Notes: a model not told the origin generated them from the letters alone. Counted from the stretch's first letter, positions 10,924 through 28,414 are shown. The stretch: 36,354 nucleotides of DNA from Clostridiales bacterium UBA4653 (GCA_002405565.1 DHMB01000020.1:8241-44594), one strand, 5' to 3'. Numbers and translations are program-made.

Positions 10924-11306
10924 ACATCATAAAGCTGTGCGGAGTTGCGATAATTTCTGTCGTTGCGGCGGTGATCGTAAAAAGAATAAAGCCGGACTTC
11001 GGGACGTTTGTTTCGATTATGGCGGCTGTCGTCATTTTCGGGGCGGCTTTGTCGACTTTGTCGCCCGTGACTTCTTATATCGGCGAGCTTTCCGACGCGG
11101 CAGGCTTCGGAATATACACGGAGACTATTATAAAATCGCTTGCGGTGACGTTGCTTGCGCAGACGACGGGCGATATATGCCGCGACTGCGGCGAGAGTGC
11201 CGTCGCGGGAAAGATTGAATTTGCCGCAAAATGCGCGATAATGCTGTTGAGTCTGCCCGTGATAAAAAACATACTTTCTCTATCGGGGGCGGTGCTTGAA
11301 AAGTGA
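10920..11306 (+). CDS. spoIIIAD: Stage III sporulation protein AD
   Basis: 128-aa polytopic membrane protein. GTGA start/stop overlap with spoIIIAC. Fourth position in the operon. Confidence 0.85.
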   Translation: MNIIKLCGVAIISVVAAVIVKRIKPDFGTFVSIMAAVVIFGAALSTLSPVTSYIGELSDAAGFGIYTETIIKSLAVTLLAQTTGDICRDCGESAVAGKIEFAAKCAIMLLSLPVIKNILSLSGAVLEK

Positions 11307-12397: not shown

Positions 12398-12398
12398 T

Positions 12399-12890: not shown

Positions 12891-13395
12891 GCTGAAAATG
12901 AAGAAAATGTTTTCCGGTGCGGACGGAAAAAAGGTCATTATTCTTGTTGCCATCGGCATTTTGGGGGTTCTGCTTATGCTTTTGGGGTCATTTTCCGGAG
13001 GGAAAAAGAGCAAAACGCAGAATTTGTCGACGGGCTTTGATGAAACCGAGGCATATATTTCCGAGACGGAGAATAAGATTAGAAACATAACGGAGCAGAT
13101 AACGGGTTCGGGAAAGACCTGTGTTGTGGTAACGGTGAAATCGGGGGTCGAGTCCGTTTACGCATATGACGAAAAGACAGCGTCCGGCTCGGAGAGCAAA
13201 AGTCATATAACCGTCAAAAACAGTAGCGGCGACGGAGAACCGGTGCTTGTCAAGCGGATATATCCGGAGATTGCGGGCGTATCGATCGTATGCGAAGGTG
13301 GCGACAGCGCGGAAATCCGCGCAAAGCTGATAAACGCCGTTTCCACAGCGCTCGGACTTTCAAGCAACCGTATCTGCATAGTGGGAACAAAATAA
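12883..13395 (+). CDS. spoIIIAG: Stage III sporulation protein AG
   Basis: 170 aa. N-terminal TM helix. The C-terminal block IAGVSIVCEGGDSAEIRAKLINAVSTALGLSSNRICIV matches the conserved SpoIIIAG ring-domain terminus. GGAGG lies 7 nt upstream of the ATG. Confidence 0.82.
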   Translation: MGELKMKKMFSGADGKKVIILVAIGILGVLLMLLGSFSGGKKSKTQNLSTGFDETEAYISETENKIRNITEQITGSGKTCVVVTVKSGVESVYAYDEKTASGSESKSHITVKNSSGDGEPVLVKRIYPEIAGVSIVCEGGDSAEIRAKLINAVSTALGLSSNRICIVGTK

Positions 13396-13417
13396 TTATT
13401 TTACAGGAGAAAGTATT

Positions 13418-14080
13418 ATGAGAAACGCAGAGAGAATGGCACTTAAAATGGGTCAGGCAGAGCAGATTGCGGGCGACGGAACGCTCGATCTTCCGGAGAG
13501 CGAGGAAAAATCGTTCAAATTCAAAAGTATTTTCACCGCGGACGGAGCAAAGAAGGGACTTAAAAAGATAGGTCTCAGAAACATTGTCATTGCGCTTGCA
13601 ATCGTCCTTATCGGCGCGGCGGTTTACGTCAACTGGCAGCTCTTCGGCGGATCAAAAGTTGAAGAGCCGGCAAAAGATCCGAACGCCGAGCAGACCGGTA
13701 ACGTAACGCCCGGATCAGACCAGAGCGGCAAGACAGACGATTATTTCGCTTCCGCGGAAATCTCCAGAAAGCAGGCAAGAGACGAGGCTATCGAGGTGCT
13801 TCAGGGTGTTGTTGACGACAAGGGCTCTCTTGACGCGGCAAAAGAGCAGGCGCTCAAAGACATCAGCGCAATGGCGGCAAACATAGAGCTTGAGGCAAAC
13901 ATTGAGTCGCTTATAAAGGCGAAGGGCTTTGAAGAATGTGTAACCGTTATAAACGGTGACAAGGCGACGGTCGTTGTAAAGAGCGAAGGACTTAAGCCCA
14001 ATCAGCTTTCGCAGATACTCGAAATCGTTTATCTTCAGGCAGGAGTTCTTCCCGCAAACGTTACGATAACCGAGAAATAA
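13418..14080 (+). CDS. spoIIIAH: Stage III sporulation protein AH
   Basis: 220 aa. TM helix (IVIALAIVLIGAAVYV), a disordered linker, and a C-terminal YscJ/FliF-like region (ATVVVKSEGL...ILEIVYLQAGVLPANVTI). Last gene of the operon. Confidence 0.78.
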   Translation: MRNAERMALKMGQAEQIAGDGTLDLPESEEKSFKFKSIFTADGAKKGLKKIGLRNIVIALAIVLIGAAVYVNWQLFGGSKVEEPAKDPNAEQTGNVTPGSDQSGKTDDYFASAEISRKQARDEAIEVLQGVVDDKGSLDAAKEQALKDISAMAANIELEANIESLIKAKGFEECVTVINGDKATVVVKSEGLKPNQLSQILEIVYLQAGVLPANVTITEK

Positions 14081-14603: not shown

Positions 14604-16250
14604 ATGACAGAAAAGACAAAGACTAACGAACCAAAACAAAACGAAACATGGGATAACGTCCAGACAAAGTTTGAGGCGTACACCGGTAACGAGCCGTATC
14701 TCTTCGTGAGCTATTCTCACAGGGATACCGCCGCTGTGTATCCCATACTTGACGCGCTCCATGACTGTAAATACCGCATATGGTATGACGAATCGTGTGA
14801 AAACGGAAACGATTTCCGCGATGAGCTGCGTCACCGCATAGAAAATGCGGAGGCAGTGTTGCTTTTCGTATCGAAAAGCTCAATGACATCTCCCTTCTGC
14901 GGCATGGAAATCATCGTCGCAAGAGAGAACAACAAGCGCCTTTATCCGATATATCTTGATGATGCGGATGTTCCGCCGGCTTTCGCAATACTTCTTTCAA
15001 ACACACAGCACAGCATGGCAGGCAATATGGACAAGCTCATCAAAGCGCTTTTGCGTGATCTGCCTGCGGTTGCAATGGATCGTCTCACAATCGGAGACGG
15101 AGAGCTCAAAAAGTGCGAAGATAACGGCAATAGCATAACCGTTGACGAAGGGGTACGCGTAATATGCGCCGACGCCTTCAAGGATCGCAAAGCTCTGCAC
15201 ACGATCATCCTGCCGCAGACGCTTGAAACAATCGGGGAAGAGAGCTTCCGCGGGTGCAGCAATCTTGAAGCGATGGACGTGCCCGAAAAGACGTCCAGAA
15301 TAGGTTCGAGCGCCTTCCGCGACTGTATAAGCATGAAGAGCCTGAAAGTTCGCAATGGGTACATAAAGATAGGCGAAAGAGCATTTGAAAACTGCGCCTC
15401 ACTTGAAAGCGTTTCGCTTCCCGACGGACTTACGGAAATTTACGGTGGCGTGTTCAACAGCTGTAAAAGTCTTGTACACATAGACCTGCCGAAAAATCTT
15501 ACGATACTCGGCGAGAGCGCATTTTCGGATTGCGTCTGCCTTGAAAAGATGGAAGTGCCGGAGGCGGTTGTCAAGATAGACGACCTTGCCTTCAACGGGT
15601 GCACTAATCTGACGAAGATAGTCCTTCACGAGGGACTCCGCAAGATCGGGAAGGGCGCTTTCAAGAACTGCCGTAATCTTAAGCAGATAGAGCTTCCGAT
15701 CTCGCTTTCCAGCATAGGCGACGCACCGTTCCGCGGATGTGAGTCGATAAAGTCGATTCACGTCGACCCGAAAAACCGTTATTACAAATCCGAGCCGAAC
15801 AAGCGTGAGGGCAGCGACCACGTTCTTTTCAACAAGAACAAATCGGTGATAGTTGCATATCCGGCGAGCAGCCGCGAGGTTCAGTATGACATACCGGACA
15901 GCGTTACGGTCATCAGCGACTGGGCGTTCAGCGAATGTAAAAAGCTCAACCGTATCACGATACCGGACAGCGTATCCGAGATAGGTGAAGGCGCGTTCTG
16001 CAACTGCGTGCTTCTCGATGAGGTTGAAATCCCGGACAGCGTTGAAAAAATCGACGACTGCGCCTTCCGCGGGTGCGCAAGCCTTGAAAAGGTAGTCATT
16101 CCGTCATCCGTAAAGGATCTCGGCTGGGGACTTTTCGACGGTTGCGAGGGCACCGTTACGGTATACTGCGACGAAGGCTCCGCGATACACGATTATTGCC
16201 GCAGATGCGGAATAAAGAGCGCGCCGATATCCGAAAAGGAATCGAACTGA
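14604..16250 (+). CDS. Cytoplasmic TIR-domain protein fused to BspA-type leucine-rich repeats
   Basis: 548 aa with no signal peptide. TIR_2-like N-terminus: YLFVSYSHRDTAAVYPILDAL..YRIWYDE...AEAVLLFVSKSSMTSPFCGMEIIVA, with putative catalytic Glu102 at 14907-14909. From ~15140 there are roughly ten ~23-aa repeats of the form IGxxAFxxCxxLxxIxIPxxV. Strong SD GGAGGG 7 nt upstream. Confidence 0.85.
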   Translation: MTEKTKTNEPKQNETWDNVQTKFEAYTGNEPYLFVSYSHRDTAAVYPILDALHDCKYRIWYDESCENGNDFRDELRHRIENAEAVLLFVSKSSMTSPFCGMEIIVARENNKRLYPIYLDDADVPPAFAILLSNTQHSMAGNMDKLIKALLRDLPAVAMDRLTIGDGELKKCEDNGNSITVDEGVRVICADAFKDRKALHTIILPQTLETIGEESFRGCSNLEAMDVPEKTSRIGSSAFRDCISMKSLKVRNGYIKIGERAFENCASLESVSLPDGLTEIYGGVFNSCKSLVHIDLPKNLTILGESAFSDCVCLEKMEVPEAVVKIDDLAFNGCTNLTKIVLHEGLRKIGKGAFKNCRNLKQIELPISLSSIGDAPFRGCESIKSIHVDPKNRYYKSEPNKREGSDHVLFNKNKSVIVAYPASSREVQYDIPDSVTVISDWAFSECKKLNRITIPDSVSEIGEGAFCNCVLLDEVEIPDSVEKIDDCAFRGCASLEKVVIPSSVKDLGWGLFDGCEGTVTVYCDEGSAIHDYCRRCGIKSAPISEKESN

Positions 16251-16342: not shown

Positions 16343-17866
16343 ATGACATCATGGTTTGGTAATCAATGGGGAAAATTTCTCTCCTCAATGCCCGAAAATA
16401 TCGGCGTGTTCGCTGTTATTTTCTTTCTGCTGTTTATTGCGGTAAGCGCGCTGTTTTCGCTGACAAAGCGGTTCATGCAGAACATTGCCGCTCTCGCGGC
16501 GGCGATAGTTTCGGCGTTCGTATCGTTTTTGCTCGTCGACTCGATTTACGGAATTCTTCTCAAACGCGAAGGAATTCAGGCGGCGATAAACGAACTGCTT
16601 GAGAAATTTCCGGAGCTGGGCGCGTCCTCTGAGGGAGTCGTTGCGGTTTCAAAATTCGTTGTCAGTCTTGTTGCCGTTCCCGCGCTGTTCCTCATAGTTT
16701 ACGGAATTTTCTCGCTTGTAACGTCGATAATATTCCGCAAGTATCAGAAGGAAGGCGTAAGCGGCGGGAAAAAGGCGGAAAGCAACATTTCGTCGACTGT
16801 GAAGATAATCATCGGCGTGCTTTCCGGCGTTGCGGCGTTTGTGGCATATTTCTTCCCGTCACATTCGTTTGTCGACCTTATGACGCTGCCGCCCATCCTT
16901 ATAACGGCGTTTGCGGTTGTCAAGGGAATAATGTTCTTCTTCGGAAAACACCGTCCCAAGGCAGACTGGGCGAGAAAGACCGCGGGAATCGTTTCCGGCG
17001 CGGTCACGGGGCTTATCCTCTTTGTAATGCTGATGTTCCCGTTCCTCTCTCTCGCAAACATCATAGGCGAAGGCGTCTCGGCAATACCGGAAGAGGCGCT
17101 CGCGTGCTATGAAAACGCAGAGGTTGACGAAGACCCGGATGACGTCGGCGTAATGACGACAATATTCAGCTACACGGCGAAGGCAAAGGTCTATTCGGAC
17201 AGTTACAGCAAAACCTTTGTTTCAAAGATATATCCCAAATGCGGGGTGGCGGGACTGCACAATAAGGTCGCTCCCGAAAAACAGGCGGAATCGATACTCA
17301 AAGCAACCGTTGCGCTCGGTTCGTATTATTATTGCGAAGAGCAGGGCGCCGAGTTTGCCAATGCCGATGAACGTCTCGGCGAATATATCGACGACGTTGT
17401 AGGCGATAAAAACTTAAACGATGTGTTGCAGGCGCTTTTCTGCGACACAATTTCAACCACATTTGCAGAGGAGAGCGAAAGAGACGCTTTCCGCGAAGAG
17501 ATATCCGCGACGGCAAAACTCTCTGGGCTTGAAAATCTTGATGAGCAGGCGCGTGCGGAAGAGAGCGTCAGACTTTCAAGAGTATATCAGGTTCTCTGCA
17601 AAATGCTTGTTTCAAAGATGAACAAAAGAGCGGACGGCTTTACCCCCGATGACCTCATACTCATCGGAAATATGCTCGACGCAATGAACGACACCTATTC
17701 CTTCGGCGATACGCCGGCGCCTATTCTCGAAAAGCTCCATGAGGACAAGAGTATAGGCAGGTTCATAGATCCGCAGGAAGCAATCGGAAATGTCAGCGCA
17801 GGAGAATACAGTTACACACTTTATATGGAAATTATAAATGAGAGAATTGCCGACGCCGCAAGGTAA
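16343..17866 (+). CDS. Polytopic membrane protein (about 6-7 TM helices) with an acidic helical C-terminal domain; unknown function
   Basis: 507 aa. Hydrophobic helices run through roughly aa 20-245, then a soluble Asp/Glu-rich region. GAGGTGA SD. No motif I recognise. Confidence 0.75.
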   Translation: MTSWFGNQWGKFLSSMPENIGVFAVIFFLLFIAVSALFSLTKRFMQNIAALAAAIVSAFVSFLLVDSIYGILLKREGIQAAINELLEKFPELGASSEGVVAVSKFVVSLVAVPALFLIVYGIFSLVTSIIFRKYQKEGVSGGKKAESNISSTVKIIIGVLSGVAAFVAYFFPSHSFVDLMTLPPILITAFAVVKGIMFFFGKHRPKADWARKTAGIVSGAVTGLILFVMLMFPFLSLANIIGEGVSAIPEEALACYENAEVDEDPDDVGVMTTIFSYTAKAKVYSDSYSKTFVSKIYPKCGVAGLHNKVAPEKQAESILKATVALGSYYYCEEQGAEFANADERLGEYIDDVVGDKNLNDVLQALFCDTISTTFAEESERDAFREEISATAKLSGLENLDEQARAEESVRLSRVYQVLCKMLVSKMNKRADGFTPDDLILIGNMLDAMNDTYSFGDTPAPILEKLHEDKSIGRFIDPQEAIGNVSAGEYSYTLYMEIINERIADAAR

Positions 17867-17902
17867 GGTGTTCTCAGATAACTTGGAAAGGAAGGAAACA
17901 TT

Positions 17903-20900
17903 GTGTTTTCAAAAAGGATTATCCGCATTCTGGCGCTGTGTATTGCCGCTGTATTTCTGATGGCATGCATACCGATGTCAGCCGCGCAGGCGAGCGAGGC
18001 GGAGGCGTCATACAAACGGAAGATTATTTCCGTTGTATATGACAACTCCGGCTCAATGGAGGTGCAGAGCAGAATAAATTATGCGCAGTATTCTCTTCAG
18101 ATACTGCTTTCAATGCTCGGCAGCGGCGACATTCTGACGATATCTCCGATGAACCCCGTCTCGGACGAAGAGCCGACGATTGAGGTCAAGCTCCAGGACG
18201 GAGACTGCAGCAATAAGATAAAGGAGATTGTCAACCGCAGGTCTATTACAAAGGCAAACGGCGGCACGCCGTTCGGAGCGGTTGAAAGAGCTGTCGAAGA
18301 GCTTGAAAAGCGCGGACTGAAAAAGGTTGAGGACGCGGGCGATGTTGAGCAGAGCGACGAATTCTGGCTCGTCATCCTGACGGACGGCTCGTTTGACTCG
18401 CTGGCGTCGCAGAGCAAGCTCGAGGACGCGATCGGCAAGCTGATCGGCAAATACAGCTCGCTCAGAACAATCTATCTCGGAATAGGCAGCAGCGCCGTGG
18501 ATCTTTCCTCCGGCAAGCTTGCGACTTCCGCGTCATTTACCGCACTGAAAGCGGGCGAAAAGACTTCGTTTGTTGAAAAAATGCAGACGATATGCAACAT
18601 AATGTCCGGAAGATACGCGCTCCAGCAGGATTCGTATACTATAAAAGGAAACAAGGTCACTCTTGACTTTGACAGAGCCGATTTCCCGTTCCGCACGGTT
18701 TCCGTCCTGCTTCAGGACTGCGCCGCGGAGCTCAGGGATATAAAATATAACGGAAAGAGCATTGAGCCGTCGCAGTTCAGCGTTCTGTCCGGTAACCCGA
18801 AGGTCGGTATGGAGGACGGATACTCCGCCGTTATAAAGGGAACGCCGTATTTCTCGTCCGGAAAGATGGAGCTTGTGTTCTCGTCCGACATAAAGGCTGA
18901 GAATCTGACGGTCACGGGCGAGCCCGCGCTTACTATTCAGCCGTATTTCGAGTATCTGAAAGACGGGAAATGGGAAAGAACGGACATCCGTTATATAAAC
19001 AGTAATCTTACAAAAAACGACTCGATAAGAGTCGGATATGAAATTTATGAGCAGGCAAACGGCAAAAAGCTCAATCTTGCCTCCATCTTCGGTGACGTTG
19101 TGTCATACGTTTCGTATGCCGGCAACCGCTACGAAATAGAAGAGAAGATACCGCTTGTCGTCGGTACGAACGAAATCGGCATATCGGTAAGCGTTATGGG
19201 CGGAAGCTACTCGATGACATCATCTGCGATGTGTATCATAAGCGATAACCCGATGGCGTACCGCATTGAAGCGACGACAGAGGAAAAGCGTGAAGCTTCG
19301 TCAAACAAAATGCTTGTGAAGTTCACGGTCTACTCCGATGACAAGCCGCTCTCCAAAAAACAGCTTGAGGAATACACTCTCAAGCTCGGCGCTGTGAGAG
19401 AAAACGGCACCGACCTTCCGATGAGTTTTGAAATCAATTCATCCGGTATTGTTGTTGCCGAGGTCGACCTGAAGGACGTTCCGTCCGGCGAAAAATGCAC
19501 TGTTTCGCTGAGAGTGACCTCTCCCTTGAACGTCTCACGCGAGAAAAAGGTGGAATTCAGCGTCAAGGCGAATATATCGAAGATCGACATAGGCCCCTCC
19601 GGTGATCTTTCATCAAAATCGTTCTCGCTTACACAGTATGAACTGCTCAGCAACAAAAACGGAATGGAATTCGTCCTCATGGCGAACGGTCAGGCTTATG
19701 ACTTCACAGCCTCCGGCGACATTTCTTATTCCGTTACGCTTGATGGCAGAGATATTACAAAATATACAAAAGCGGAAGGTAACAGACTGATATTCACCCC
19801 GACGCTTGAAAGCCTCGGAGACGAGGCGGGCAAGCCCGGAAAAAAGACGGTTGAGCTGACGGTTTCGTCAGTACTGAACCCCAAGGTTTCCGGAAAGGCA
19901 ACGGCGACTCTCGAGCTTCTGAAGTCCGAAATGACGGTGACCGTCAAAGCGGACGAGAGCCCGTTGAACATAACGCCGTATCAGCTCAAAAACAACGGGC
20001 GCGGATTTGAGTTTGTCATAAAGATTGACGGAAAGACTGTCGCTTTTGATGACGGAATCATTGATTGGCAGCTGACTCTCGGCGGAACGGATATAGGAAA
20101 GTACGCTACCGTAAGCGGCGGCGGACTCAGCTTTATCCCGACGGAGGAGAGCATGGGCGGAAGTACCTCTCTCGGCGGCAGAACCGCTTCCGTGAAGGCA
20201 TGGCTTAAGGAAATCCCGGATATATCGGCGTCGTGCGACGCTTCATGGAACATCGTCGACAGTCTTTGGGAGATCGTGATATTGCCGGGCACATCAGAGG
20301 TTGACCGCTTTGCGATAGAAGACAGCGGAGCTTCTTTCAAAGTAAAACTTATGAGAGACAAGGTCTGGCTCAGCGCCGAAGAGGCGCAGGCGCTCTTTGA
20401 ATCAGGCGCGCTCAGATTTGAATGCGGAATGATCGATAAGAACTTCCTGCTTCCTGTTGGCAAGGAGATAACCTTTGAAAGCGAAGACGGAGTCGGAATA
20501 ATAACATACAGCGTCACGCGCGATCAGATAAATCCCTTTGCAAGCTTTATGGCAATGCTTATTCCGAACGGCACGCGGACAGTAAACATTTTCTGCAACA
20601 CCGCAGAAAACAGCACAGACCTCTTCTTTGTGAAGAGCGCGGCATGGTCATACATATGGAGAATACTTGTTATTCTGCTGATAATTTATCTCATAGTATG
20701 GTTTGTGCTTGCGTTCAAGGTCAAGAGCTTCCCTTCGGGAAGAATTGTGACCGTTATAAGGAGCGGAGCGTATGCGAGATTTTCCAGCAAAGACCTGAAC
20801 AAGACGTTTATCGATAAATACTTGTGGCATCTTCAGCGCCTGCTCCCCTGGAAGCTGGCAACAAATCAGCCGGATCGTGACAAGGTCACATTCTCGTCCG

Positions 20901-21220
20901 GAATAACAACGAAGGGGTCGGCAAAATCAAGCGGAACCAAGGCGAAGCTGAAGATTAAAGGAAAGCCGCCGAAGAAGCTTTATAAGATATCGTTTGTAGG
21001 GCTTCCGACCGAAATTTATACGTACATGATGTCTTTCGGCAAACCTTCGATTGGCAAGGCGCCGGGGAAGATCAACGCAGACGATTTCTTCGGATGTGTT
21101 TCTCTTGAAGATGAGATAGAAAAATATCCCGATCTTTCAAGCGGAAAATATTATGCCGAAGTCGACGACAAAAAGGGAAAAGTAACAAAGGTTACTTATT
21201 ATATGAGAACAAATTTCTAA
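17903..21220 (+). CDS. Surface-exposed vWA-domain protein with Ig-like repeats, a single C-terminal TM anchor and a Lys-rich cytoplasmic tail
   Basis: 1105 aa. Signal peptide (...IPMSAAQA/SEA). Complete MIDAS: DNSGS (18041-18055), GGTPF, ILTDG. Beta-rich repeats include a clear ~100-aa tandem duplication (~19615-19920 vs ~19960-20220). TM helix WSYIWRILVILLIIYLIVWFVLAF (~20646-20717). ~165-aa tail includes KAKLKIKGKPPKK. GTG start. Confidence 0.85.
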   Translation: MFSKRIIRILALCIAAVFLMACIPMSAAQASEAEASYKRKIISVVYDNSGSMEVQSRINYAQYSLQILLSMLGSGDILTISPMNPVSDEEPTIEVKLQDGDCSNKIKEIVNRRSITKANGGTPFGAVERAVEELEKRGLKKVEDAGDVEQSDEFWLVILTDGSFDSLASQSKLEDAIGKLIGKYSSLRTIYLGIGSSAVDLSSGKLATSASFTALKAGEKTSFVEKMQTICNIMSGRYALQQDSYTIKGNKVTLDFDRADFPFRTVSVLLQDCAAELRDIKYNGKSIEPSQFSVLSGNPKVGMEDGYSAVIKGTPYFSSGKMELVFSSDIKAENLTVTGEPALTIQPYFEYLKDGKWERTDIRYINSNLTKNDSIRVGYEIYEQANGKKLNLASIFGDVVSYVSYAGNRYEIEEKIPLVVGTNEIGISVSVMGGSYSMTSSAMCIISDNPMAYRIEATTEEKREASSNKMLVKFTVYSDDKPLSKKQLEEYTLKLGAVRENGTDLPMSFEINSSGIVVAEVDLKDVPSGEKCTVSLRVTSPLNVSREKKVEFSVKANISKIDIGPSGDLSSKSFSLTQYELLSNKNGMEFVLMANGQAYDFTASGDISYSVTLDGRDITKYTKAEGNRLIFTPTLESLGDEAGKPGKKTVELTVSSVLNPKVSGKATATLELLKSEMTVTVKADESPLNITPYQLKNNGRGFEFVIKIDGKTVAFDDGIIDWQLTLGGTDIGKYATVSGGGLSFIPTEESMGGSTSLGGRTASVKAWLKEIPDISASCDASWNIVDSLWEIVILPGTSEVDRFAIEDSGASFKVKLMRDKVWLSAEEAQALFESGALRFECGMIDKNFLLPVGKEITFESEDGVGIITYSVTRDQINPFASFMAMLIPNGTRTVNIFCNTAENSTDLFFVKSAAWSYIWRILVILLIIYLIVWFVLAFKVKSFPSGRIVTVIRSGAYARFSSKDLNKTFIDKYLWHLQRLLPWKLATNQPDRDKVTFSSGITTKGSAKSSGTKAKLKIKGKPPKKLYKISFVGLPTEIYTYMMSFGKPSIGKAPGKINADDFFGCVSLEDEIEKYPDLSSGKYYAEVDDKKGKVTKVTYYMRTNF

Positions 21221-21248: not shown

Positions 21249-24200
21249 ATGAAAAACATTCTTCTCATCGGTGTCGGAGGCACCGGCAGCAACGCGGTTG
21301 ACATTCTTACTCAGAAGAGAAAAGAATTCGGAAACCAGACAGGCAACAGAATTACATCGATCGTGTTTGATACGGACGCCGGCAGCGTTGAAAATATTTC
21401 AGCGGCTACCATTATTCCCATGACGGACAATGCAAGCGTCGGCACCATCTGCGACAGAATAGGCACTTCGTACCTGCGCGAATGGTTCCCCTGCGACGAC
21501 ACATGGGTGGATTACAAGTCCGTCAGAGCGCAGGAAATGGTCAGAGGCGCATCGCAGTGGCGTAAGAAATCGTTCCTTGCATTCGTCAACCTTATGAATA
21601 AGCCTATGGCGCGCAACACCTTTATCAATGCGCTTGAATCAATGGTCGCAAACCCCGGCGCTTCATGCGAGGTATATGTCATTTCCTCAGTTGCAGGCGG
21701 AACGGGCTCCGGTTCATTTATACCGATCGCTCTTTATACCAAGAGATATCTTCGTAAGTGCCTCGGAAAGGATCCGATCGTAAACGCTATGATCGCCCTT
21801 CCCGATATATATGCCGACAGTCAGACCCCCGATAACAAGGTCAAGGTCTATGCAAACGCATATGCGATTCTTCGTGAGCTCAACGCCATAAACCTTGTTG
21901 CTCACAACTTCAATGACGACAACAAGACAGAAAAGAAGGCTCCTGTCAAATTCCGCATAGGTGATCCGAGAGAGCCCAACGTAGGCGTTCTGTTTGATTC
22001 GGAAGACGAGCAATACTGGACGCCTGAAGCCGCTCCGTTTACGCAGATATTTATACTCGACCGTATTCCCGGACTGAAATCCATCTCGGCGCACGATATG
22101 GTAATGGCTGACTCGCTTTATACTCTGATTTGTACGGATATCGGCGCGGCATTCGACAGCGAAGCGTCAAACCATGAGATTCTTCATTCGCAGAGCAACG
22201 GCAGCAACGCCATTTATGCAGGAATTTCCACATCACAGATACGTTTCCCCAGAGAGACGATTCTTGAATATCTCTCCCGCAGAAAAGCTCTCGGCGATTG
22301 CGAAAAGGAATGGATGGTTCTCCATCGCAAGGTCGAGGCGACGATTGCAGAGAAGATTCAGCAGGCAAAAGATAACAATGACAGATACGTTCTCAAGGAC
22401 GGCGGTTATGCAGAGCTCGTTTTGCAGTCGCTTGCAGACCTTGCCGAGAACGGAACAGGTATTCTTGTCTCCGATATGGTTGACCGCGGTACAGCGGTTG
22501 TTGAAGACGGAAAGAAGACCGACAAGTCAACCGAAGAAAAGTTCTTCGCAGAGCTCAAAAAGGAAATCGACAAGAGAGTTCTTTCGGATGAGAGATATTT
22601 CGAGGAAAACTGCGAGCGGCCTGCTCCTGAAAAGGCAAGTGCCAAAGAAGCTGTTGTCGAGAGCGCAGAAGCATGGAGAGAAGAAGGTCTCTTTGAGTAC
22701 TTTGCAGAATGTGTAAGACTTATCAAGAATTCTTCCACGAGCCTTGCGGAAGCTGTTCTTTCTCTTGACGAAAACCGCGGAATGGGACTTAACAAGTCGC
22801 TCTCTGTAATCGAAACGCTCCTTAAAAAGGATAATAAGTTCATTCACCCCGTTGCAGCAATGGTACAGCTTTGCAGACTGAAATGTCATCTCGCCGATTT
22901 CCTCAAGATAGGAAAGGGTGACTTCCAGTGGGAAGAAATCAAGAAGAGATCTGTTGATTCGCTTCCCGCATGGGCATTGGAACTTGACGATGATAGCGCA
23001 CCTGTTGACGACAAGAAGATTGTCAGCCGCAGTGCATATGCAAAATCGACAAGCGGCGTACAGAGATTCTCCGATCTCTGCGACGACAGTGAAACATATC
23101 TTTCAAAACATACCGATGCGCGTTGTGACCACGAGTGCGTTGAGGCAGACGTCAAAACGCTTTTCAAGAAAATACGCAAGAGAGCTGTTGATCAGTTCCA
23201 GTATGCCGTATTCAAGAAAATTTCCGATAACCTTGATATACTCATAGAAAAATACCGCAACTTCTTCTCCCGTTTCGACAAGGAAAGAGAAGAGCTTGAA
23301 GAAGAAACAAAGACTGTTCTCCGCAAGGACTGCGGCACGGTCGACAGCATTATAAACGTATATTCTTCAATTGCGGATAAGGAAGAAATCCTCAGAGACG
23401 TATTCAAGAACGCAGGCCCCGAGAGCGAAGCTCAGCTTGCCGAGACGGATGATATTGCCGGCAAGGGCGTATTCGCCACGGCGTACGGCGCTGCTGTTGC
23501 CGCAAGCAAACAGGACGAAACATGGAACGAGAAGGACTCCCGCGCATACCGTTCGCTCTTTACGAACATGGTTGCCGCTTACAGAGAGTATATCGCAAAA
23601 TCCGACGCGTACGCGAAGATCGCTTCGTTCAACGTTGTTCAGGCGATAGAATGTTCCTGCAAGGACAAAGATAAGCTCGAATCCGAATTCCGCACATGCT
23701 TCTCGACGGCTCAGGAGCTTGCAACTCCTTCTCTCCGTATAAATACGGGCGACGCATGCAGCGATCTTGTCAAACCTTCAAACGTCGTTGTATTCATGAT
23801 GTCGCTTGAAACAGGTAAATACATAAAGAAGAACGCCGACAAGCTCGGACTTCACCTGCCCGCAAATCAGAACAAGGAAAGCACGGTTATCCGTTCTTGC
23901 GTTGAGGAATTTGTCCGCCGCTATTCGGGCGATGACAGCGTTCGCGTTTCGATCGTTGAAAATATGCCCGATGACGTGCTCTACTGCACAGGCGAGATCA
24001 TGGACATCAGCCCTCTCCGCATTGCAAAGTTTGATGAATGCGGAACAGACAACATCTATTTCAGAAATTACAAGCAGGCGCTCTTCAATGCGAAGAGATT
24101 CGGCACGGATATGTGGAATCCTCACATCGGCAAGGACTTGCACCGTCGCGGCTACCTGCCCTATATGAACGAGGCTATGGAGGAAGAATGTGACGTCAAG

Positions 24201-25124
24201 ATGGTAAAGGCGCTCCTCTTCGCTCTGTCGACCGGCGGAATAACTTACACGGCAAGCGGACTTGCACAGACAAACGATGTCTACTCATTCCGTTACATCA
24301 CCTCAAAGGGCGACGACAAGAGACCTGTATTCGGCCCCGATGGCGCAATGGTTCAGATGAAGAATGTTGCTCAGCTTGTTGCATGGCTCCGCAACGAAGA
24401 CGATCTTGTTGACAAGTGGAGCTCTGGATTTGATAATGCAATTCAGGATCAGCTCAATGCGCTTCCCAACATCGCAAGCAATTCCGAGGTTCCGCGCCTT
24501 GAAGCAGCGATCACAAACTCCAAGTTTATTTCGCAGCTCAAGACAATGCTCTTTGCAGATCCTTCCATGAAGTCTGCAGACGACGCTTCTCCGGACAAGA
24601 AGGTCGGGCTCGGAATACTTGAATTTGCATATTATGTCAGAACGAGCGAAGAATCCTCCAAGGACTGCGACGACGCAGAGAGAATTCTCAGAGTTGCATA
24701 TGACGTATTCAGGCAGTTCTGCGCATTCCGCGCAAACCCCGAGCTGAACCCCGAAAGATTTATTCAGGTATACCGTCAGCAGATCGGCAACATATTTGCC
24801 GGACTTGCAGGATCACGCATATTCCAGAAGGAAGCCAAGGAAGAATCGCGCAGGATCTATTTCGATCAGTTCGTTTCATGGCTCAACGGCGCAGGCGTGT
24901 TCCTCAACATCAGCAATTCGTCACCGATTGACGACAAGGGCAACGTATGCATAACGGATAAATTCGATTATTCCGAATATCCCGATGTCACAAAGGTGCT
25001 CAGGACGGCTGCACCGAAGAAGGCAGTCTCTGCGGACAAACAGCCTGCAGAGGTTGTTCCTTCCGATGACGATTACATCGACACAGACGATGTTGACGTA
25101 ACGGACGAAGACGAAACAAACTGA
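21249..25124 (+). CDS. Giant tubulin/FtsZ-superfamily (Tubulin_2/FtsZL-like) GTPase, canonical motifs, acidic C-terminal tail
   Basis: 1291 aa. T1-like MKNILLIGVGGTGSNAVD (aa 1-18). Tubulin signature AGGTGSG at aa 149-155 (21693-21713), a T1-T4 spacing like eukaryotic tubulin. Long helical extension. Ends PSDDDYIDTDDVDVTDEDETN. AAGGAG SD. Confidence 0.8.
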   Translation: MKNILLIGVGGTGSNAVDILTQKRKEFGNQTGNRITSIVFDTDAGSVENISAATIIPMTDNASVGTICDRIGTSYLREWFPCDDTWVDYKSVRAQEMVRGASQWRKKSFLAFVNLMNKPMARNTFINALESMVANPGASCEVYVISSVAGGTGSGSFIPIALYTKRYLRKCLGKDPIVNAMIALPDIYADSQTPDNKVKVYANAYAILRELNAINLVAHNFNDDNKTEKKAPVKFRIGDPREPNVGVLFDSEDEQYWTPEAAPFTQIFILDRIPGLKSISAHDMVMADSLYTLICTDIGAAFDSEASNHEILHSQSNGSNAIYAGISTSQIRFPRETILEYLSRRKALGDCEKEWMVLHRKVEATIAEKIQQAKDNNDRYVLKDGGYAELVLQSLADLAENGTGILVSDMVDRGTAVVEDGKKTDKSTEEKFFAELKKEIDKRVLSDERYFEENCERPAPEKASAKEAVVESAEAWREEGLFEYFAECVRLIKNSSTSLAEAVLSLDENRGMGLNKSLSVIETLLKKDNKFIHPVAAMVQLCRLKCHLADFLKIGKGDFQWEEIKKRSVDSLPAWALELDDDSAPVDDKKIVSRSAYAKSTSGVQRFSDLCDDSETYLSKHTDARCDHECVEADVKTLFKKIRKRAVDQFQYAVFKKISDNLDILIEKYRNFFSRFDKEREELEEETKTVLRKDCGTVDSIINVYSSIADKEEILRDVFKNAGPESEAQLAETDDIAGKGVFATAYGAAVAASKQDETWNEKDSRAYRSLFTNMVAAYREYIAKSDAYAKIASFNVVQAIECSCKDKDKLESEFRTCFSTAQELATPSLRINTGDACSDLVKPSNVVVFMMSLETGKYIKKNADKLGLHLPANQNKESTVIRSCVEEFVRRYSGDDSVRVSIVENMPDDVLYCTGEIMDISPLRIAKFDECGTDNIYFRNYKQALFNAKRFGTDMWNPHIGKDLHRRGYLPYMNEAMEEECDVKMVKALLFALSTGGITYTASGLAQTNDVYSFRYITSKGDDKRPVFGPDGAMVQMKNVAQLVAWLRNEDDLVDKWSSGFDNAIQDQLNALPNIASNSEVPRLEAAITNSKFISQLKTMLFADPSMKSADDASPDKKVGLGILEFAYYVRTSEESSKDCDDAERILRVAYDVFRQFCAFRANPELNPERFIQVYRQQIGNIFAGLAGSRIFQKEAKEESRRIYFDQFVSWLNGAGVFLNISNSSPIDDKGNVCITDKFDYSEYPDVTKVLRTAAPKKAVSADKQPAEVVPSDDDYIDTDDVDVTDEDETN

Positions 25125-25228: not shown

Positions 25229-28200
25229 ATGGAAGAACGGATTATTATAATCGGCGCGGGAAGAACGGGCTGTGAAGCTGTCAGCGCTTTTGCCGAAAAC
25301 AACCCCGGAAAAAAGAACATTTTTCCGATGTTTTTCGGAACCGACGCCGCGGCTCTCGACGAGCTTTCCGAAAACGGAGTATCACCGAAAAACATTTTCA
25401 GAATGACAAGTAAAAATACTTTCGGACAGATTGTCCGTGACCTTGGCGAGGGAATTTCCGATTGGTTTTCATGCACATATGAAAACTGCTATGGCGGTCA
25501 GAGGGCGATGGAGCATGGGTCGGGCTTTTCAAGGCTTAAAGCAATGGTTTCCTTTGTCGATTTTATAGCGCGCGGCGGCGACAAGACAATCGAAGAAAGA
25601 ATTTCGGAGGTCGCCGGCGATGAGGCGGAATACAAGGTCTATACCGTTGCCGCTCCTTCCGACGCAACGGGAGGAGAACTGTTTTTGCCGATAACCCTGT
25701 ATATTGCGAGAGCGCTTTGGCAGAAGGGCGTTCATGCGGAATACGGTCTTCTGCTTTCGTCCCCGACGGCATTGACGTCCGGCGGAATGAATGAAATGCA
25801 GATGACAAAAGTTTTTGGAAACGCTTATGCTTCGCTTCGTGAGCTGAACGCCGTTATGAGCGGGGCGGGCGGAGAAGAATTTTCGATTGGCTCCGAAAAC
25901 GACCCTTATATAGGTCAGCTTTATCCTATGCAGGGCGAATATTCCGAAAACAAAGGGCTGTTCTCGCATGTCTATGTTGTCGGTAAAATTCCCGGCGTGT
26001 TTACGGCGTCGGGGCACATTTCGGTCATTTCCGACATGCTGTTTTTCCTTACGTCAGACATCGCACAGAGAACGCTTTCCGCGCGTAATGACAACGCTTT
26101 TACGTTTTTGTCGTCGGCATCGTTAGATTTTCCCGCCGGAAGGGCAATTGATTATATTGTTGACAGGGCGGTCTGCGATGATATTTTGCAGAGCATGAGC
26201 GCTTGCGGAAATCTTTCGGCTTATGCAGAGGAGATGCTCGGTTCGGAGGAGAAGAAAGCGCCGAGAGAGGATCAGAACATTCCTGAGAGCCTTTTTGCGA
26301 TTTTCGAAAACGAAAGTGTCATTTCGGATTACATAAACGCGCTTATCGAAGCTACGGAATTTACGGATGACGCACCGGTTTTCGATACCGAATGTGCGAC
26401 TCTGACCGAAGGCGGGCTCTGCCGCCGTCTGTTTGACGTAAAGAGCAAAACAACTGAAAAAACGGACAAATTCAATGCAATTGTTACGGATTGCAAAAAG
26501 GAGCTTTCCTCCTATGCCGAGGCGTTCCGTCTGCACACCGTGCGCGTTTGCGGATTATTGTCCGAAAAAGTATTTCCGGCGGGCGCGGAGGGCGAGCTTT
26601 CGTTTGCATCCGCGATCGGAATCGGATCATGTCGGCTCGATGTGGTATTTGCGCGGCTTTGCACATTCCGCAAGGTGCTGGCAAAAGTCATCGACGACAA
26701 AAAATGTAATCTTATAAAGATGAAGACGGGCGAGAGCATAAGCGAATATACAGACCGCGCGACATCGGAGCGCATGCCCGTCATAAGAACCGACGGAGAG
26801 TATCTGTTGACGACGGAAAAAAACATAACGAAAGAAAAATGCGAATCGCTTGCGTCCGTGCTGAAAAGAGCGGGGGACGATATCCGCACCATGGCAAACC
26901 TTCGGATGCGATATGCGGTGCTTGAACTGCTTTCCGACTTTACGGACAGGTTGATTTCGGAGGGCAAGCGGCTTATCTCCGATTTTAAGGAGGTCATCTC
27001 GGATTACGGAGCTTCGGGAGCGGACAGAGAAGAGCTGACCGAGCTTGAAAGTCGCTATGAGGATATATATAAAGAGATGCGCGGGGCTTTGGCGGAGACG
27101 GTTGCCGGCGGAATTTCGGATGTGACGGTTTCGGTCGTTTCCGGAATTTACGGAAGTGTCTTGGGCATAAATGACGGCACGCCCGAGCGGGAGCCCGCAT
27201 ACAAAATTTACTGCGGCGAGAAGGAAAGAGCGATAAAAGCCGCTGCCGAAGGCGATGTTATGCGTATTTTGCGACGCAAAAGCGTAACGGAGCTTATGCC
27301 GCAGAAAACGGAAAATGATTTCGGCGCATACCTTTCGTCGATAGCCGACAGGGCGATGCCGGTGTTTTCATACTCCGAAAACCGAGCCTGCGAGAGCCGT
27401 CCGCGCAGAGGCGTGATTACGGTGCTTCCGCGCGAAGCGGCGGAAGCAATTGCCGCAAAGGAAGACGGAGACGCGCCGAAGAGCGCAGAGGACGCGGTCA
27501 GAGATTATCTTGTCAGACACAAGTGTCTTGATTCCGAGTTTGCCGTCTGTGACGGGTTGTCGGCTTTCAGAATTATCTGCTTCGGATTTGCCGAAAATCT
27601 TTCGCTCGAGAATTTTACACTTGTACGCGAGTCGGACAAGGACGCGAAATGGTATGAAGAATACCTCAAATGTCTTGAAAATGAAAGTAAATTCAGGTCT
27701 GTCCTGTGGCACCCGTACATTTCATCCTGCACAAGGGGAATACCGCCGTGCATAGACAAAGAGTTTGAAAAATCGCGCAATGCACAGATCTGCAAAGCGC
27801 TTGTATATATGTTCATCGGAAACGGATTTTCCGCAGAATATGATGAGAGATCCGGTAAAAAGGTTGTTTTCCGTGATGAAGGCGGACGAAAGTATCCGCT
27901 CTCTGTCGACGGAAAGAGCATTGCCGCGGGGGATTTTTGCGGCATGACGGATTATCTTGTGTCAAACGAGCCGGTTGCAAGAGATATGGCATTGGCGTTT
28001 GACGAATATATCGACCGTAACTGCGCGGAGACCGTAAAAAACATATCCGGCTCCGATGAAAACGATAATTTGATTGATTGCGCACTTATGCGGGCGCTCC
28101 GCGGTAACGGCGAGCGTGCGGAAGAAAAGCTGCCGCTTTCGGAAATGCTTCTTAAATATCTTTCCGTCGGGGGAAAACTGGCGGAAGGAATTGCGGACGC

Positions 28201-28414
28201 TTTGCTTTGCGCAATCGAAAAGCTGTGCTTATCCGTAAACAAAGACAGTGATTCCGAGACTGTCGGAGCGCGGATATTCAAGGAAATTGAAGCCCTGCGC
28301 GGCTGTGTCGCCGCGTCGGCTCTTTCGCGGATGACGGAGACGGCGGAAGAAAAATATCGTCCTTCGGCGGTTCCGACGAAAGAAACAAACAGTAGTGAGG
28401 AGAGATTATGTTAA
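25229..28414 (+). CDS. Paralogous tubulin-like protein with degenerate nucleotide-binding signature
   Basis: 1061 aa and collinear with the upstream gene. Matching blocks: MEERIIIIGAGRTGCEAV vs MKNILLIGVGGTGSNAV; KVYTVAAPSDATGGELFLPITLY vs EVYVISSVAGGTGSGSFIPIALY; KVFGNAYASLRELNAV vs KVYANAYAILRELNAI; FSHVYVVGKIPGV..SGHISVISDMLFFL vs FTQIFILDRIPGL..SAHDMVMADSLYTL. The signature GGTGSG is replaced by DATGGE (25661-25678). Confidence 0.72.
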   Translation: MEERIIIIGAGRTGCEAVSAFAENNPGKKNIFPMFFGTDAAALDELSENGVSPKNIFRMTSKNTFGQIVRDLGEGISDWFSCTYENCYGGQRAMEHGSGFSRLKAMVSFVDFIARGGDKTIEERISEVAGDEAEYKVYTVAAPSDATGGELFLPITLYIARALWQKGVHAEYGLLLSSPTALTSGGMNEMQMTKVFGNAYASLRELNAVMSGAGGEEFSIGSENDPYIGQLYPMQGEYSENKGLFSHVYVVGKIPGVFTASGHISVISDMLFFLTSDIAQRTLSARNDNAFTFLSSASLDFPAGRAIDYIVDRAVCDDILQSMSACGNLSAYAEEMLGSEEKKAPREDQNIPESLFAIFENESVISDYINALIEATEFTDDAPVFDTECATLTEGGLCRRLFDVKSKTTEKTDKFNAIVTDCKKELSSYAEAFRLHTVRVCGLLSEKVFPAGAEGELSFASAIGIGSCRLDVVFARLCTFRKVLAKVIDDKKCNLIKMKTGESISEYTDRATSERMPVIRTDGEYLLTTEKNITKEKCESLASVLKRAGDDIRTMANLRMRYAVLELLSDFTDRLISEGKRLISDFKEVISDYGASGADREELTELESRYEDIYKEMRGALAETVAGGISDVTVSVVSGIYGSVLGINDGTPEREPAYKIYCGEKERAIKAAAEGDVMRILRRKSVTELMPQKTENDFGAYLSSIADRAMPVFSYSENRACESRPRRGVITVLPREAAEAIAAKEDGDAPKSAEDAVRDYLVRHKCLDSEFAVCDGLSAFRIICFGFAENLSLENFTLVRESDKDAKWYEEYLKCLENESKFRSVLWHPYISSCTRGIPPCIDKEFEKSRNAQICKALVYMFIGNGFSAEYDERSGKKVVFRDEGGRKYPLSVDGKSIAAGDFCGMTDYLVSNEPVARDMALAFDEYIDRNCAETVKNISGSDENDNLIDCALMRALRGNGERAEEKLPLSEMLLKYLSVGGKLAEGIADALLCAIEKLCLSVNKDSDSETVGARIFKEIEALRGCVAASALSRMTETAEEKYRPSAVPTKETNSSEERLC

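What the first reader, a model, noticed from the sequence alone, without database searches (positions are those of the whole stretch)
17903..21220. Type-I membrane vWA protein with intact MIDAS, duplicated Ig-like modules and a basic cytoplasmic tail next to the tubulin genes
The sequence shows a cleavable signal peptide and a complete metal-ion-dependent adhesion site (DxSxS = DNSGS, Thr in GGTPF, Asp in ILTDG). About 700 aa of beta-rich modules follow. Two consecutive ~100-aa modules are clearly homologous: SLTQYELLSNKNGMEFVLMANGQ..ITKYTKAEGNRLIFTPTLESLG vs NITPYQLKNNGRGFEFVIKIDGK..IGKYATVSGGGLSFIPTEESMG. Then come one TM helix and a ~165-aa tail.

The topology puts a ligand-binding head outside the cell and the tail inside, immediately upstream of the tubulin-like genes. 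That is the arrangement expected for an outside-in coupling device, comparable to an integrin.
Basis: partly seen in the sequence, partly recalled or inferred. Interest (0 to 1): 0.6.

Follow-up and report, generated by a model that had tools for sequence, protein, structure and literature searches.

The report
Surface vWA receptor of tubulin-like operon
This gene encodes a single-pass membrane protein of a gut Clostridia bacterium, with a metal-binding vWA head on an Ig-like stalk outside the cell and a small orphan domain inside; it is the outward-facing partner of bacterial tubulin-like (FtsZl1) genes, a pairing catalogued in 2010 for which I found no experimental study.

Summary
ORF 17903-21220 (1105 aa) has these parts:
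- an N-terminal signal peptide;
- a divergent vWA domain whose five MIDAS residues (D47, S49, S51, T122, D161) are invariant in 73 relatives;
- six beta-rich modules, two of them (573-685 and 687-797) a real tandem duplication (30% identity, 53 bits) with two strong copies only in the window and its two nearest relatives;
- one TM helix (914-938);
- a 167-aa cytoplasmic tail.

The tubulin-like gene (Pfam Tubulin_2, also called FtsZl1) starts 28 nt downstream. In 67 of 69 informative loci from Clostridia and Bacilli, the same signal peptide, vWA, single TM and tail architecture sits directly upstream of an FtsZl1 gene. In Bacillus thuringiensis the two genes sit alone between housekeeping genes.

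Two details need correcting. The tail is predicted to fold; it is an orphan domain with no PDB or BFVD match, found only at the C-terminus of this family. Its basic charge is not conserved. The best-conserved parts are the TM helix and the juxtamembrane segment.

The vWA-FtsZl1 linkage was published by Makarova and Koonin (2010) and by Kaur et al. (2020). This is therefore a new member of a known, untested kind. The integrin comparison is an analogy only; direct coupling to the tubulin-like proteins is inferred, not shown.

The parts
17888..17896 (+). Ribosome-binding site (AGGAAGG) about 7 nt before the GTG start
   Evidence: Read directly from the sequence
17903..21220 (+). Whole gene: 1105-aa type I membrane vWA protein, stop codon included
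   Evidence: 44 homologs in the protein collection. 343 relatives in species genomes.
17903..17992 (+). Signal peptide, aa 1-30 (n-region K4/R5/R8, hydrophobic core, AQA|S)
   Evidence: Hydropathy. An N-terminal hydrophobic segment is present in nearly all relatives. pLDDT falls at 23-34 after the helix.
18008..18622 (+). Divergent vWA domain, aa 36-240. MIDAS residues: D47/S49/S51 (nt 18041-18055), T122 (nt 18266-18268), D161 (nt 18383-18385).
   Evidence: Invariant columns. 30 of 73 heads hit VWA_2 and 27 of 73 hit VWA. The family profile hits PDB vWA proteins. AF2 beta/alpha pattern with pLDDT around 90.
18635..19558 (+). Three beta-sandwich modules D1-D3, aa 245-552. D2 is the best-conserved ectodomain module (52% mean identity).
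   Evidence: AF2 secondary structure. Foldseek matches to cadherin and S-layer Ig-like chains. Per-domain identity.
19619..19957 (+). Ig-like repeat copy 1, aa 573-685
   Evidence: Pairwise alignment. Repeat HMM E 8.6e-36.
19961..20293 (+). Ig-like repeat copy 2, aa 687-797
   Evidence: Two strong copies occur only in the window, L001 and L003, so the duplication is lineage-specific.
20300..20629 (+). Membrane-proximal alpha/beta module D6, aa 800-909
   Evidence: AF2 pLDDT around 90. 35% mean identity; D819 and P851 invariant.
20642..20716 (+). Single TM helix, aa 914-938, preceded by the motif WSYIWR with invariant R920
   Evidence: Hydropathy peak 2.9. AF2 helix at 914-937. 54% mean identity, the highest of any segment.
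20717..21217 (+). Cytoplasmic tail, aa 939-1105. The proximal part is conserved (P.G..V hairpin, VN.TF, WH..RF.P, Q). The middle is variable and Lys-rich. The C-terminal strands are weakly conserved.
   Evidence: No structural match in the PDB or BFVD. The domain is found only at the C-terminus of this family.
21249..25124 (+). Partner gene: FtsZl1/Tubulin_2 protein A (1291 aa), no TM segment
   Evidence: PF13809 E 2.4e-33. No hydrophobic segment. Follows the vWA gene in 67 of 69 loci.
25229..28414 (+). Diverged second tubulin-like protein B (1061 aa)
   Evidence: PF13809 E 2.6e-6, 27.4 bits, just over the 27-bit cut-off. Also found by the genome search.

Best explanation
**What it is.** The gene encodes the outward-facing, single-pass (type I) membrane subunit of an FtsZl1 (Pfam Tubulin_2) system.

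**Proposed layout after export and signal-peptide removal:**
- A divergent vWA domain with a complete MIDAS site forms the head, together with two conserved beta-sandwich modules (D1, D2).
- A stalk of further Ig-like modules carries the head. Stalk length varies between lineages; here it is extended by a recent tandem duplication.
- Inference: the head binds a ligand through a metal ion, with the ligand supplying an acidic side chain, as in other MIDAS proteins.
- A strongly conserved TM helix and juxtamembrane segment lead to a small folded orphan domain in the cytoplasm. The giant FtsZl1 GTPases encoded immediately downstream also lie in the cytoplasm.

**Proposed function (inferred).** The protein physically links an extracellular binding event, or attachment point, to assembly or positioning of FtsZl1 polymers at the membrane. 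In this clade, the other membrane proteins of the cluster probably take part.

**Shown here:** the architecture, its conservation, and the strict gene pairing.

**Inferred only:** ligand binding, contact with FtsZl1, and the direction of signalling.
For: - **Architecture.** (full-length AF2 model, mean pLDDT 85.3).
- **MIDAS and vWA homology.** MIDAS residues are invariant in 29 and in 73 sequences. vWA homology is reached through the family.
- **Stalk.** An Ig-like chain with a variable number of modules.
- **Conserved topology.** Signal peptide, DxSxS about 40-60 aa from the start, one C-proximal TM helix and a 116-203 aa tail recur in relatives from Oscillospiraceae, Lachnospiraceae, Christensenellaceae, Erysipelotrichaceae and the Bacillus cereus group.
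- **Gene pairing.** An FtsZl1 gene starts 16-469 nt downstream on the same strand in 67 of 69 loci. In B. thuringiensis the pair sits alone between housekeeping genes, as Makarova and Koonin listed it.
- **Location of partners.** FtsZl1 A and B have no TM segment.
- **Conserved membrane segment.** The TM helix (54% identity) and proximal tail (36%) are conserved while the rest of the tail is not.
- **Dedicated tail.** The tail domain occurs only at the C-terminus of this family among 1.84 billion representative proteins.
Against: - No experiment or co-folding test links the tail to FtsZl1.
- Most of the tail evolves fast (12-17% identity), whereas FtsZl1 A is 42-59% identical in the same loci.
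- Tails of distant clades are not detectably homologous to this one.
- Charge complementarity with the FtsZl1 C-terminus is not supported.
- The isolated tail model has only moderate confidence (pLDDT 67.6) and differs in its middle part from the full-length model.
- The window protein itself fails every Pfam vWA model.
- The ligand is unknown.
Confidence: 0.6

Rival explanations
1. Immune or conflict sensor. The vWA head detects a phage, or a competitor's structure, at the cell surface. This triggers FtsZl1 polymerisation and the neighbouring effectors (TIR-LRR, and the transglutaminase-like giant protein), as in the tubulin-containing GTPase-centric conflict systems proposed by Kaur et al. 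2020.
For: - The distribution is sporadic: only 5 of 81 genera in the same taxonomic family carry a homolog.
- A TIR-domain protein and a protein with a transglutaminase-like core lie in the same gene run.
- Kaur et al. place firmicute neighbourhoods with two tubulins and two vWA proteins among conflict systems.
- Stalk length varies between lineages.
Against: - No cluster protein other than the TIR domain hits PADLOC models.
- The GAP1 and DO-GTPase components that define those systems were not found: there is no Walker A GTPase in the seven proteins.
- The head is the conserved part (42-52% identity) rather than hypervariable.
- The Bacillus version is a bare two-gene pair without effectors.
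- The gene is essentially absent from phage and plasmid records.
Confidence: 0.25
2. Inside-out envelope or membrane-remodelling machine. FtsZl1 filaments position, cluster or pull on the vWA protein in order to organise surface adhesion, wall contacts or membrane shape. This is the membrane-remodelling proposal of Makarova and Koonin 2010. The vWA head is then an anchor to the cell wall or to a partner, not a sensor.
For: - The head and the membrane-proximal module are conserved, which fits a constant self ligand.
- The stalk of about six modules fits a wall-spanning spacer (the wall-thickness comparison is my inference).
- The conserved TM helix suggests packing with the cluster's multi-pass membrane proteins.
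- The original authors favoured membrane remodelling.
Against: - A sporadic distribution is unusual for a core envelope function.
- No ligand, wall-binding domain or sortase signal was found; there is no LPXTG motif.
- No phenotype is known.
Confidence: 0.3
3. Independent surface adhesin. The vWA protein is an ordinary Gram-positive adhesin that merely lies beside the tubulin-like genes and has no functional link to them.
For: vWA plus Ig-like modules is a common adhesin layout. The whole-model structure search returns adhesion and S-layer proteins.
Against: - The same gene order holds in 67 of 69 loci across two bacterial classes.
- The Bacillus pair is isolated from other related genes.
- The cytoplasmic domain is conserved and dedicated to this family.
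- The intergenic gap is 28 nt.
Confidence: 0.05

Closest known systems
vWA proteins of vWA/FtsZl1 operons (Makarova and Koonin 2010, Biol Direct 5:33, PMC2875224), for example BT9727_3336 with BT9727_3335 in Bacillus thuringiensis, and the vWA-FtsZl1-B5-B12 arrangement of Ruminococcus lactaris and 'Bacteroides' capillosus
   Same: - vWA gene directly upstream of an FtsZl1 (Tubulin_2) gene.
- Intact MIDAS site.
- Signal peptide and TM segment.
- The heads are homologous: Bacillus cereus group loci were recovered with the family's peptide patterns and tblastn.
- A membrane protein of about 680 aa and a giant membrane protein follow, in the positions of B5 and B12.
   Different: - Longer ectodomain: 1105 aa against about 700 aa, with six modules and a recent duplication.
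- A second, diverged tubulin-like gene is inserted after the first.
- The giant downstream protein has a transglutaminase-like rather than a zincin domain.
- A TIR-LRR gene and a six-TM gene lie upstream.
- The tail is not detectably homologous to the Bacillus tail.
Firmicute 'tubulin theme' of the GAP1-N2-type GTPase-centric conflict systems (Kaur, Burroughs, Iyer, Aravind 2020, eLife 9:e52696, PMC7159879)
   Same: Two tubulin-domain genes lie next to a membrane vWA protein whose vWA domain is extracellular, in Firmicutes.
   Different: - No GAP1, DO-GTPase or FNIII-repeat component, and no YtkA-fused second vWA protein, was found in the seven cluster proteins.
- This vWA protein has a single TM helix rather than several.
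- The contig ends 187 nt after the window, so genes further downstream are unseen.
Integrin I and beta-I domains (eukaryotic vWA/MIDAS receptors linked to actin)
   Same: A MIDAS-bearing vWA head on a stalk of beta-sandwich modules, a single TM helix and a cytoplasmic tail. A cytoskeletal-family protein is the genomic partner.
   Different: - No homology beyond the vWA fold.
- No alpha/beta heterodimer evident.
- No NPxY motif.
- The tail is a 167-aa folded orphan domain.
- The partner belongs to the tubulin family, not to actin adaptors.
- The resemblance is an analogy drawn from general knowledge, not a tested membership.
Gram-positive vWA adhesins and pilus tip proteins (for example RrgA and GBS104; from my own knowledge) and eukaryotic vWA adhesins hit by the family profile (PTMP1, TRAP)
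   Same: A vWA/MIDAS head combined with Ig-like modules on the cell surface. The PTMP1 and TRAP vWA domains are the best sequence-profile matches in the PDB.
   Different: Anchored by a C-terminal TM helix plus a cytoplasmic domain rather than by a sortase LPXTG signal (none found), and strictly paired with a cytoplasmic GTPase gene.

Membership tests
vWA domain superfamily (Pfam VWA PF00092 / VWA_2 PF13519) | Sequence match to vWA family models | tested here: met
   The window protein alone gets no hit. However, 30 of 73 homologous heads hit VWA_2 (best E 1e-7) and 27 of 73 hit VWA. The family profile hits the vWA structures PTMP1 (E 1e-3), TRAP, collagen VI, ITIH4 and midasin. The vWA part of TIGR03788 matches at E 7e-6. 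Membership is met through the family, not by the single sequence.
vWA domain superfamily | Alternating beta/alpha Rossmann-like fold | tested here: met
   AF2 gives strands 39-46, 77-82, 152-160, 187-194 and 212-217 interleaved with helices 50-70, 103-116, 125-136, 170-181 and 220-235, at pLDDT around 90.
vWA domain superfamily | Complete MIDAS site (DxSxS, Thr, Asp), spatially clustered | tested here: inconclusive
   All five residues are present and invariant. They sit at the C-terminal ends of strand 1 and strand 4 and before helix 125-136, as expected for a MIDAS site. Model coordinates are not exposed, so distances were not measured.
vWA/FtsZl1 operon (Makarova and Koonin 2010) | vWA gene adjacent to, and on the same strand as, an FtsZl1 (Tubulin_2) gene | tested here: met
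   PF13809 E 2.4e-33 for the next gene. The gap is 28 nt. The order is conserved in 67 of 69 loci.
GAP1-N2 GTPase-centric conflict system, firmicute tubulin theme (Kaur et al. 2020) | GAP1 protein plus a zinc-ribbon DO-GTPase and an FNIII-repeat component in the neighbourhood | tested here: not met
   No GTPase family hit. The only Walker A match, AKKKRGKT at aa 1631 of the giant protein, lies in a Lys-rich stretch, and no NKxD motif accompanies it. Caveat: the contig ends inside the last gene.
GAP1-N2 system, firmicute tubulin theme | Two tubulin-domain genes plus a membrane protein with an extracellular vWA domain | tested here: met
Integrin | Alpha/beta heterodimer, hybrid/PSI/EGF domains, and a short tail with NPxY motifs that bind talin or kindlin | tested here: not met
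   No NPxY motif. No integrin family hit in Pfam. The tail is a 167-aa folded orphan domain.
Sortase-anchored Gram-positive vWA adhesin | C-terminal LPXTG sorting signal | tested here: not met
   No LPx[TSA]G motif. The C-terminal hydrophobic helix is followed by 167 residues, not by a short charged stop-transfer tail.
Known anti-phage defence systems (PADLOC-DB 2.0) | Match to any defence-system protein model | tested here: not met
   No hit for the vWA protein or for its tubulin-like neighbours. Only the upstream TIR domain hits ThsB-like models, and weakly.

The most novel reading that the evidence does not exclude
The vWA protein is a bacterial transmembrane receptor that couples metal-dependent ligand binding at the cell surface directly to GTP-dependent assembly of a tubulin-family polymer in the cytoplasm. 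The coupling would run through its conserved TM/juxtamembrane module and its orphan tail domain. This would be a prokaryotic receptor-cytoskeleton link analogous to integrin-actin coupling. It could be used either for surface sensing (including phage detection) or for force transmission to the envelope.
Probability: 0.25. Interest if true: 0.8.

Novelty: new member of a known kind. Interest (0 to 1): 0.38.

Why it matters
FtsZl1 (Tubulin_2) proteins are a widespread branch of the tubulin/FtsZ superfamily with no known function, and I found no functional study of them. A 2023 survey of the FtsZ/tubulin family still treats them as a sparse, divergent outgroup.

When the operon type was published, a reviewer asked how periplasmic or secreted vWA proteins could work with a cytoplasmic FtsZ-like protein. 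The uniform architecture found here gives a concrete physical route across the membrane: signal peptide, vWA head, stalk, single TM helix and cytoplasmic domain, across Clostridia and Bacilli.

The work also points to the conserved TM/juxtamembrane segment as the place to look for the coupling. The two-gene version in Bacillus thuringiensis is a tractable system for a first experiment.

The finding itself adds a member and some detail to a catalogued system; it does not define a new one.

Tried and rejected
1. **Pfam on the window protein and on its first 245 aa.** No vWA hit, even at E<=10. Homology had to be reached through the family.
2. **PDB sequence search with the single protein and with the full-length profile.** Only weak Ig-like hits.
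3. **Whole-model Foldseek.** Dominated by the Ig-like chain, so it says nothing about the head.
4. **Tail-only model against the PDB and BFVD.** Nothing below E 0.4.
5. **Homology between the tails of different clades.** An HMM of the close clade finds only a TM segment in one distant tail. hhalign between tail groups is weak; the best pair is Bacillus against Lachnospiraceae at 51% probability.
6. **Charge complementarity between the tail and the FtsZl1 C-terminus.** Rejected as a general feature.
7. **Lipoprotein reading of LMAC at aa 19-22.** The Cys is not conserved in the family consensus, so I prefer a type I signal peptide.
8. **Sporulation link, because spoIIIA lies just upstream.** The spoIIIA genes are not found next to the cluster in L001, the 51%-identical relative, so I treat the adjacency as incidental.
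9. **Mobile-element carriage.** Essentially absent from plasmid and phage collections.
11. **Genes downstream of the cluster in this genome.** The contig ends 187 nt after the window.
Full report
**Setting**

The window is a chromosomal stretch of a small gut Clostridia genome. It comes from a metagenome-assembled genome of 1.76 Mb, 82% complete. All large genes lie on the + strand. By my reading of the translations, they are hflX, dnaG, sigA, a 1078-aa lipoprotein-like protein and a spoIIIAA-AH-like operon.

After that operon comes a run of seven genes:

| Position | Product |
|---|---|
| 14604-16250 | TIR plus BspA-type LRR protein |
| 16343-17866 | six-TM protein |
| 17903-21220 | the target gene |
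| 21249-25124 | giant Tubulin_2 (PF13809, also called FtsZl1) protein, E 2.4e-33 |
| 25229-28414 | diverged second copy, E 2.6e-6 |
| 28408-30450 | 680-aa protein with two TM segments |
| 30451 onward | protein of more than 1968 aa with four N-terminal TM segments and a transglutaminase-like C-terminus |

The last gene runs off the contig, which ends 187 nt after the window.

**Checking the observation**

*ORF.* It is 1105 codons long and starts at a GTG preceded by AGGAAGG. It lies 36 nt after the previous stop, and the tubulin-like gene starts 28 nt after its own stop.

*Hydropathy.* There are exactly two hydrophobic segments. One is an N-terminal signal-peptide-like segment with basic residues before it and AQA|S after it. 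The other is a TM helix centred on 920-938. Seven basic residues and one acidic residue lie in the 30 residues after the TM helix, against two and two before it. This fits an outside-in orientation.

*Tail.* It is 167 aa with K+R 32 and D+E 15.

They are invariant in an alignment of 29 full-length homologs and in 73 head domains drawn from Clostridia and Bacilli.

*vWA identity is real but divergent.*
- The window protein hits no Pfam model, even at E<=10.
- 30 of 73 homologous heads hit VWA_2, and 27 of 73 hit VWA.
- The family profile finds the vWA structures PTMP1, TRAP, collagen VI, ITIH4 and midasin in the PDB. The DxSxS and LTDG blocks align to the MIDAS blocks of PTMP1.

*Full-length AF2 model.* Mean pLDDT is 85.3. 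It shows:
- the beta/alpha alternation of a vWA fold at 39-235;
- about six beta-rich modules at 245-909;
- a helix at 914-937;
- a tail with regular secondary structure at pLDDT 70-90.

A Foldseek search with the whole model returns cadherin ectodomains, Bacillus S-layer proteins, DSCAM and complement C3, which are chains of Ig-like domains.

An HMM built from them finds two strong copies only in the window and its two closest relatives (L001, L003). All other members of the clade have one strong copy. The duplication is therefore recent and lineage-specific.

**What the relatives show**

The protein collection holds 44 homologs, almost all unnamed metagenome proteins. The 97% cluster has 338 member sequences.

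A scan of one genome per species found 343 relatives. I examined the best 80 loci and parsed the ORF in each. The recurring features are:
- an N-terminal hydrophobic segment;
- DxSxS about 40-60 residues from the start;
- one TM helix near the C-terminus;
- a cytoplasmic tail of 116-203 residues.

Among loci with a complete ORF and at least 2 kb of downstream DNA, 67 of 69 have the N-terminus of an FtsZl1 gene starting 16-469 nt downstream on the same strand. This holds in Oscillospiraceae, Lachnospiraceae, Christensenellaceae, Erysipelotrichaceae, Neobacillus and the Bacillus cereus group.

In a complete B. thuringiensis chromosome, the pair sits alone between an oligopeptide-binding protein and a methyltransferase on one side, and an amino-acid permease and GerAC on the other. 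The core unit is therefore two genes: the vWA membrane protein and FtsZl1. Full-length matches to the 680-aa protein and the giant protein are confined to the close clade (L001-L037); weak partial giant-protein hits also occur in L045 and L057. The second tubulin copy is a separate downstream gene only in some close-clade loci. TIR-LRR matches occur in 6 of the 80 loci.

Within the taxonomic family of the window's genome, only 5 of 81 genera carry a homolog. The system is therefore accessory. It is essentially absent from plasmid and phage records.

**Where the conservation lies**

Mean identity to the window protein across 28 clade members:

| Segment | Mean identity |
|---|---|
| vWA | 42% |
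| D1 | 38% |
| D2 | 52% |
| D3 | 29% |
| repeat 1 / repeat 2 | 21% / 27% |
| membrane-proximal module | 35% |
| TM helix | 54% |
| proximal tail | 36% |
| middle tail | 12% |
| C-terminal tail | 17% |

The TM and juxtamembrane block reads WSYIWR-ILVIL..II...GFFNGKCKSLP.G..V, then a hairpin, then VN.TF..Y.WH..RF.P...Q. R920 is invariant.

The protein therefore divides into:
- a conserved head (vWA, D1, D2);
- a variable stalk;
- a conserved membrane-proximal, TM and juxtamembrane unit;
- a fast-evolving distal tail.

**The tail**

- Predicted on its own, the tail folds with moderate confidence (pLDDT 67.6, pTM 0.64).
- It has no structural match in the PDB (best E 1.4) or in BFVD (best E 0.46).
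- A profile of the tail, searched against 1.84 billion representative proteins, finds 108 proteins. Nearly all are 900-1500 aa long with the match at the extreme C-terminus, or are short gene fragments.
- Three very long proteins (3722-6156 aa) match only profile positions 62-133, in 11-22 repeated stretches. I take these to be spurious matches to the variable mid-tail.
- The tail is thus an orphan domain dedicated to this receptor family.
- Tails of more distant clades, Bacillus included, are not detectably homologous to it.
Of 66 tails, 55 are net positive (median +9). The closest relative is net -7, and the Bacillus tails are about +1.
- Tail charge does not correlate with the charge of the FtsZl1 C-terminus (rho 0.12, p 0.33). 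Charge complementarity would predict a negative correlation.

**Interpretation**

Shown:
- the type I architecture;
- an intact, invariant MIDAS motif;
- an Ig-like stalk of variable length;
- a conserved TM/juxtamembrane unit;
- near-obligate pairing with a cytoplasmic FtsZl1 gene.

Inferred:
- the head binds a ligand through its metal site;
- the TM and tail contact FtsZl1 or the cluster's membrane proteins;
- information or force passes across the membrane.

The conserved TM helix argues for intramembrane packing with a partner. The fast-evolving distal tail argues against a large conserved interface with the much better conserved FtsZl1.

Three biological roles remain open.
- An immune or conflict sensor. 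For: sporadic distribution, and the TIR and transglutaminase neighbours. Against: a conserved head, no PADLOC hit, no defining GTPase, and the effector-less Bacillus pair.
- An envelope or membrane-remodelling machine, as the original authors proposed.
- A plain adhesin, which the synteny makes unlikely.

**Comparison with the literature**

Makarova and Koonin (2010) defined FtsZl1. They reported that most of its operons contain a vWA protein, often with a signal peptide or TM segment and usually with an intact MIDAS site. They proposed membrane remodelling. Their supplementary table lists BT9727_3336 (vWA) with BT9727_3335 (FtsZl1), and the vWA-FtsZl1-B5-B12 order in gut Clostridia. The present cluster resembles that order, with a second tubulin copy inserted.

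Kaur et al. (2020) placed firmicute neighbourhoods with two tubulins and two vWA proteins inside their GAP1-N2 GTPase-centric conflict systems. The GAP1, GTPase and FNIII components that define those systems were not found here.

A 2023 survey of the FtsZ/tubulin family still treats the Tubulin_2 group as a divergent, sparsely distributed outgroup. I found no functional study.

Notes from earlier agents of this scan describe the same architecture in other genomes and reach the same filing. I treated them as leads. I tested one of them, the charge-complementarity idea, with a negative result.

**Verdict**

Trans-membrane coupling to the tubulin-like genes is a sound inference from architecture and synteny. 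The integrin comparison is an analogy, and neither the direction of coupling nor the contact is tested. This is a new member, with added anatomical detail, of a system catalogued in 2010 and 2020 for which I found no experimental study.

Noticed in passing
L002:11309-12620 (contig UQUT01000011.1 of the 97%-identical relative UMGS660): The relative's contig matches the window only up to window position 19210 (residue ~436 of the vWA protein). It then continues in frame into unrelated sequence that, by eye, resembles a RyR-like repeat domain, up to the contig end. This is probably a chimeric contig end or a rearrangement in that assembly.
   Followed up: partly
window 20642-20716 (aa 914-938): The TM helix is the best-conserved segment of the whole protein (54% mean identity). 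An invariant Arg (R920) lies in the WSYIWR motif at its outer edge. This is unusual for a simple membrane anchor and suggests specific packing with another membrane protein.
   Followed up: partly
window 17957-17968 (aa 19-22, LMAC): A lipobox-like L-M-A-C lies inside the signal peptide. The Cys is not conserved in the family consensus, so I read it as chance.
   Followed up: partly
MT836542.1 (hit H2), 4824-6233: An unannotated 9.8-kb 'Bacteriophage sp.' contig from human faecal samples encodes a 25%-identical relative of residues 39-511. It could be bacterial DNA in a virome or a phage-borne copy.
   Followed up: no
P0055, P0060, P0099 (3722-6156 aa proteins): Three giant proteins match only profile positions 62-133 of the tail profile, in 11-22 repeated stretches each. 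I take this to be a spurious match to the variable mid-tail rather than homology.
   Followed up: no
L033:9935-11077 and L046:4006-6609: These are the only two informative loci without a detectable FtsZl1 gene downstream. L033 has a truncated 380-aa vWA ORF, possibly a remnant. L046 has a full-length vWA-TM-tail protein with no tubulin-like match within 8 kb.
   Followed up: no
window 9349-14080: A spoIIIAA-AH-like sporulation operon (my reading of the translations) lies directly upstream of the cluster. The adjacency is not seen in L001, the 51%-identical relative, so it looks incidental.
   Followed up: partly
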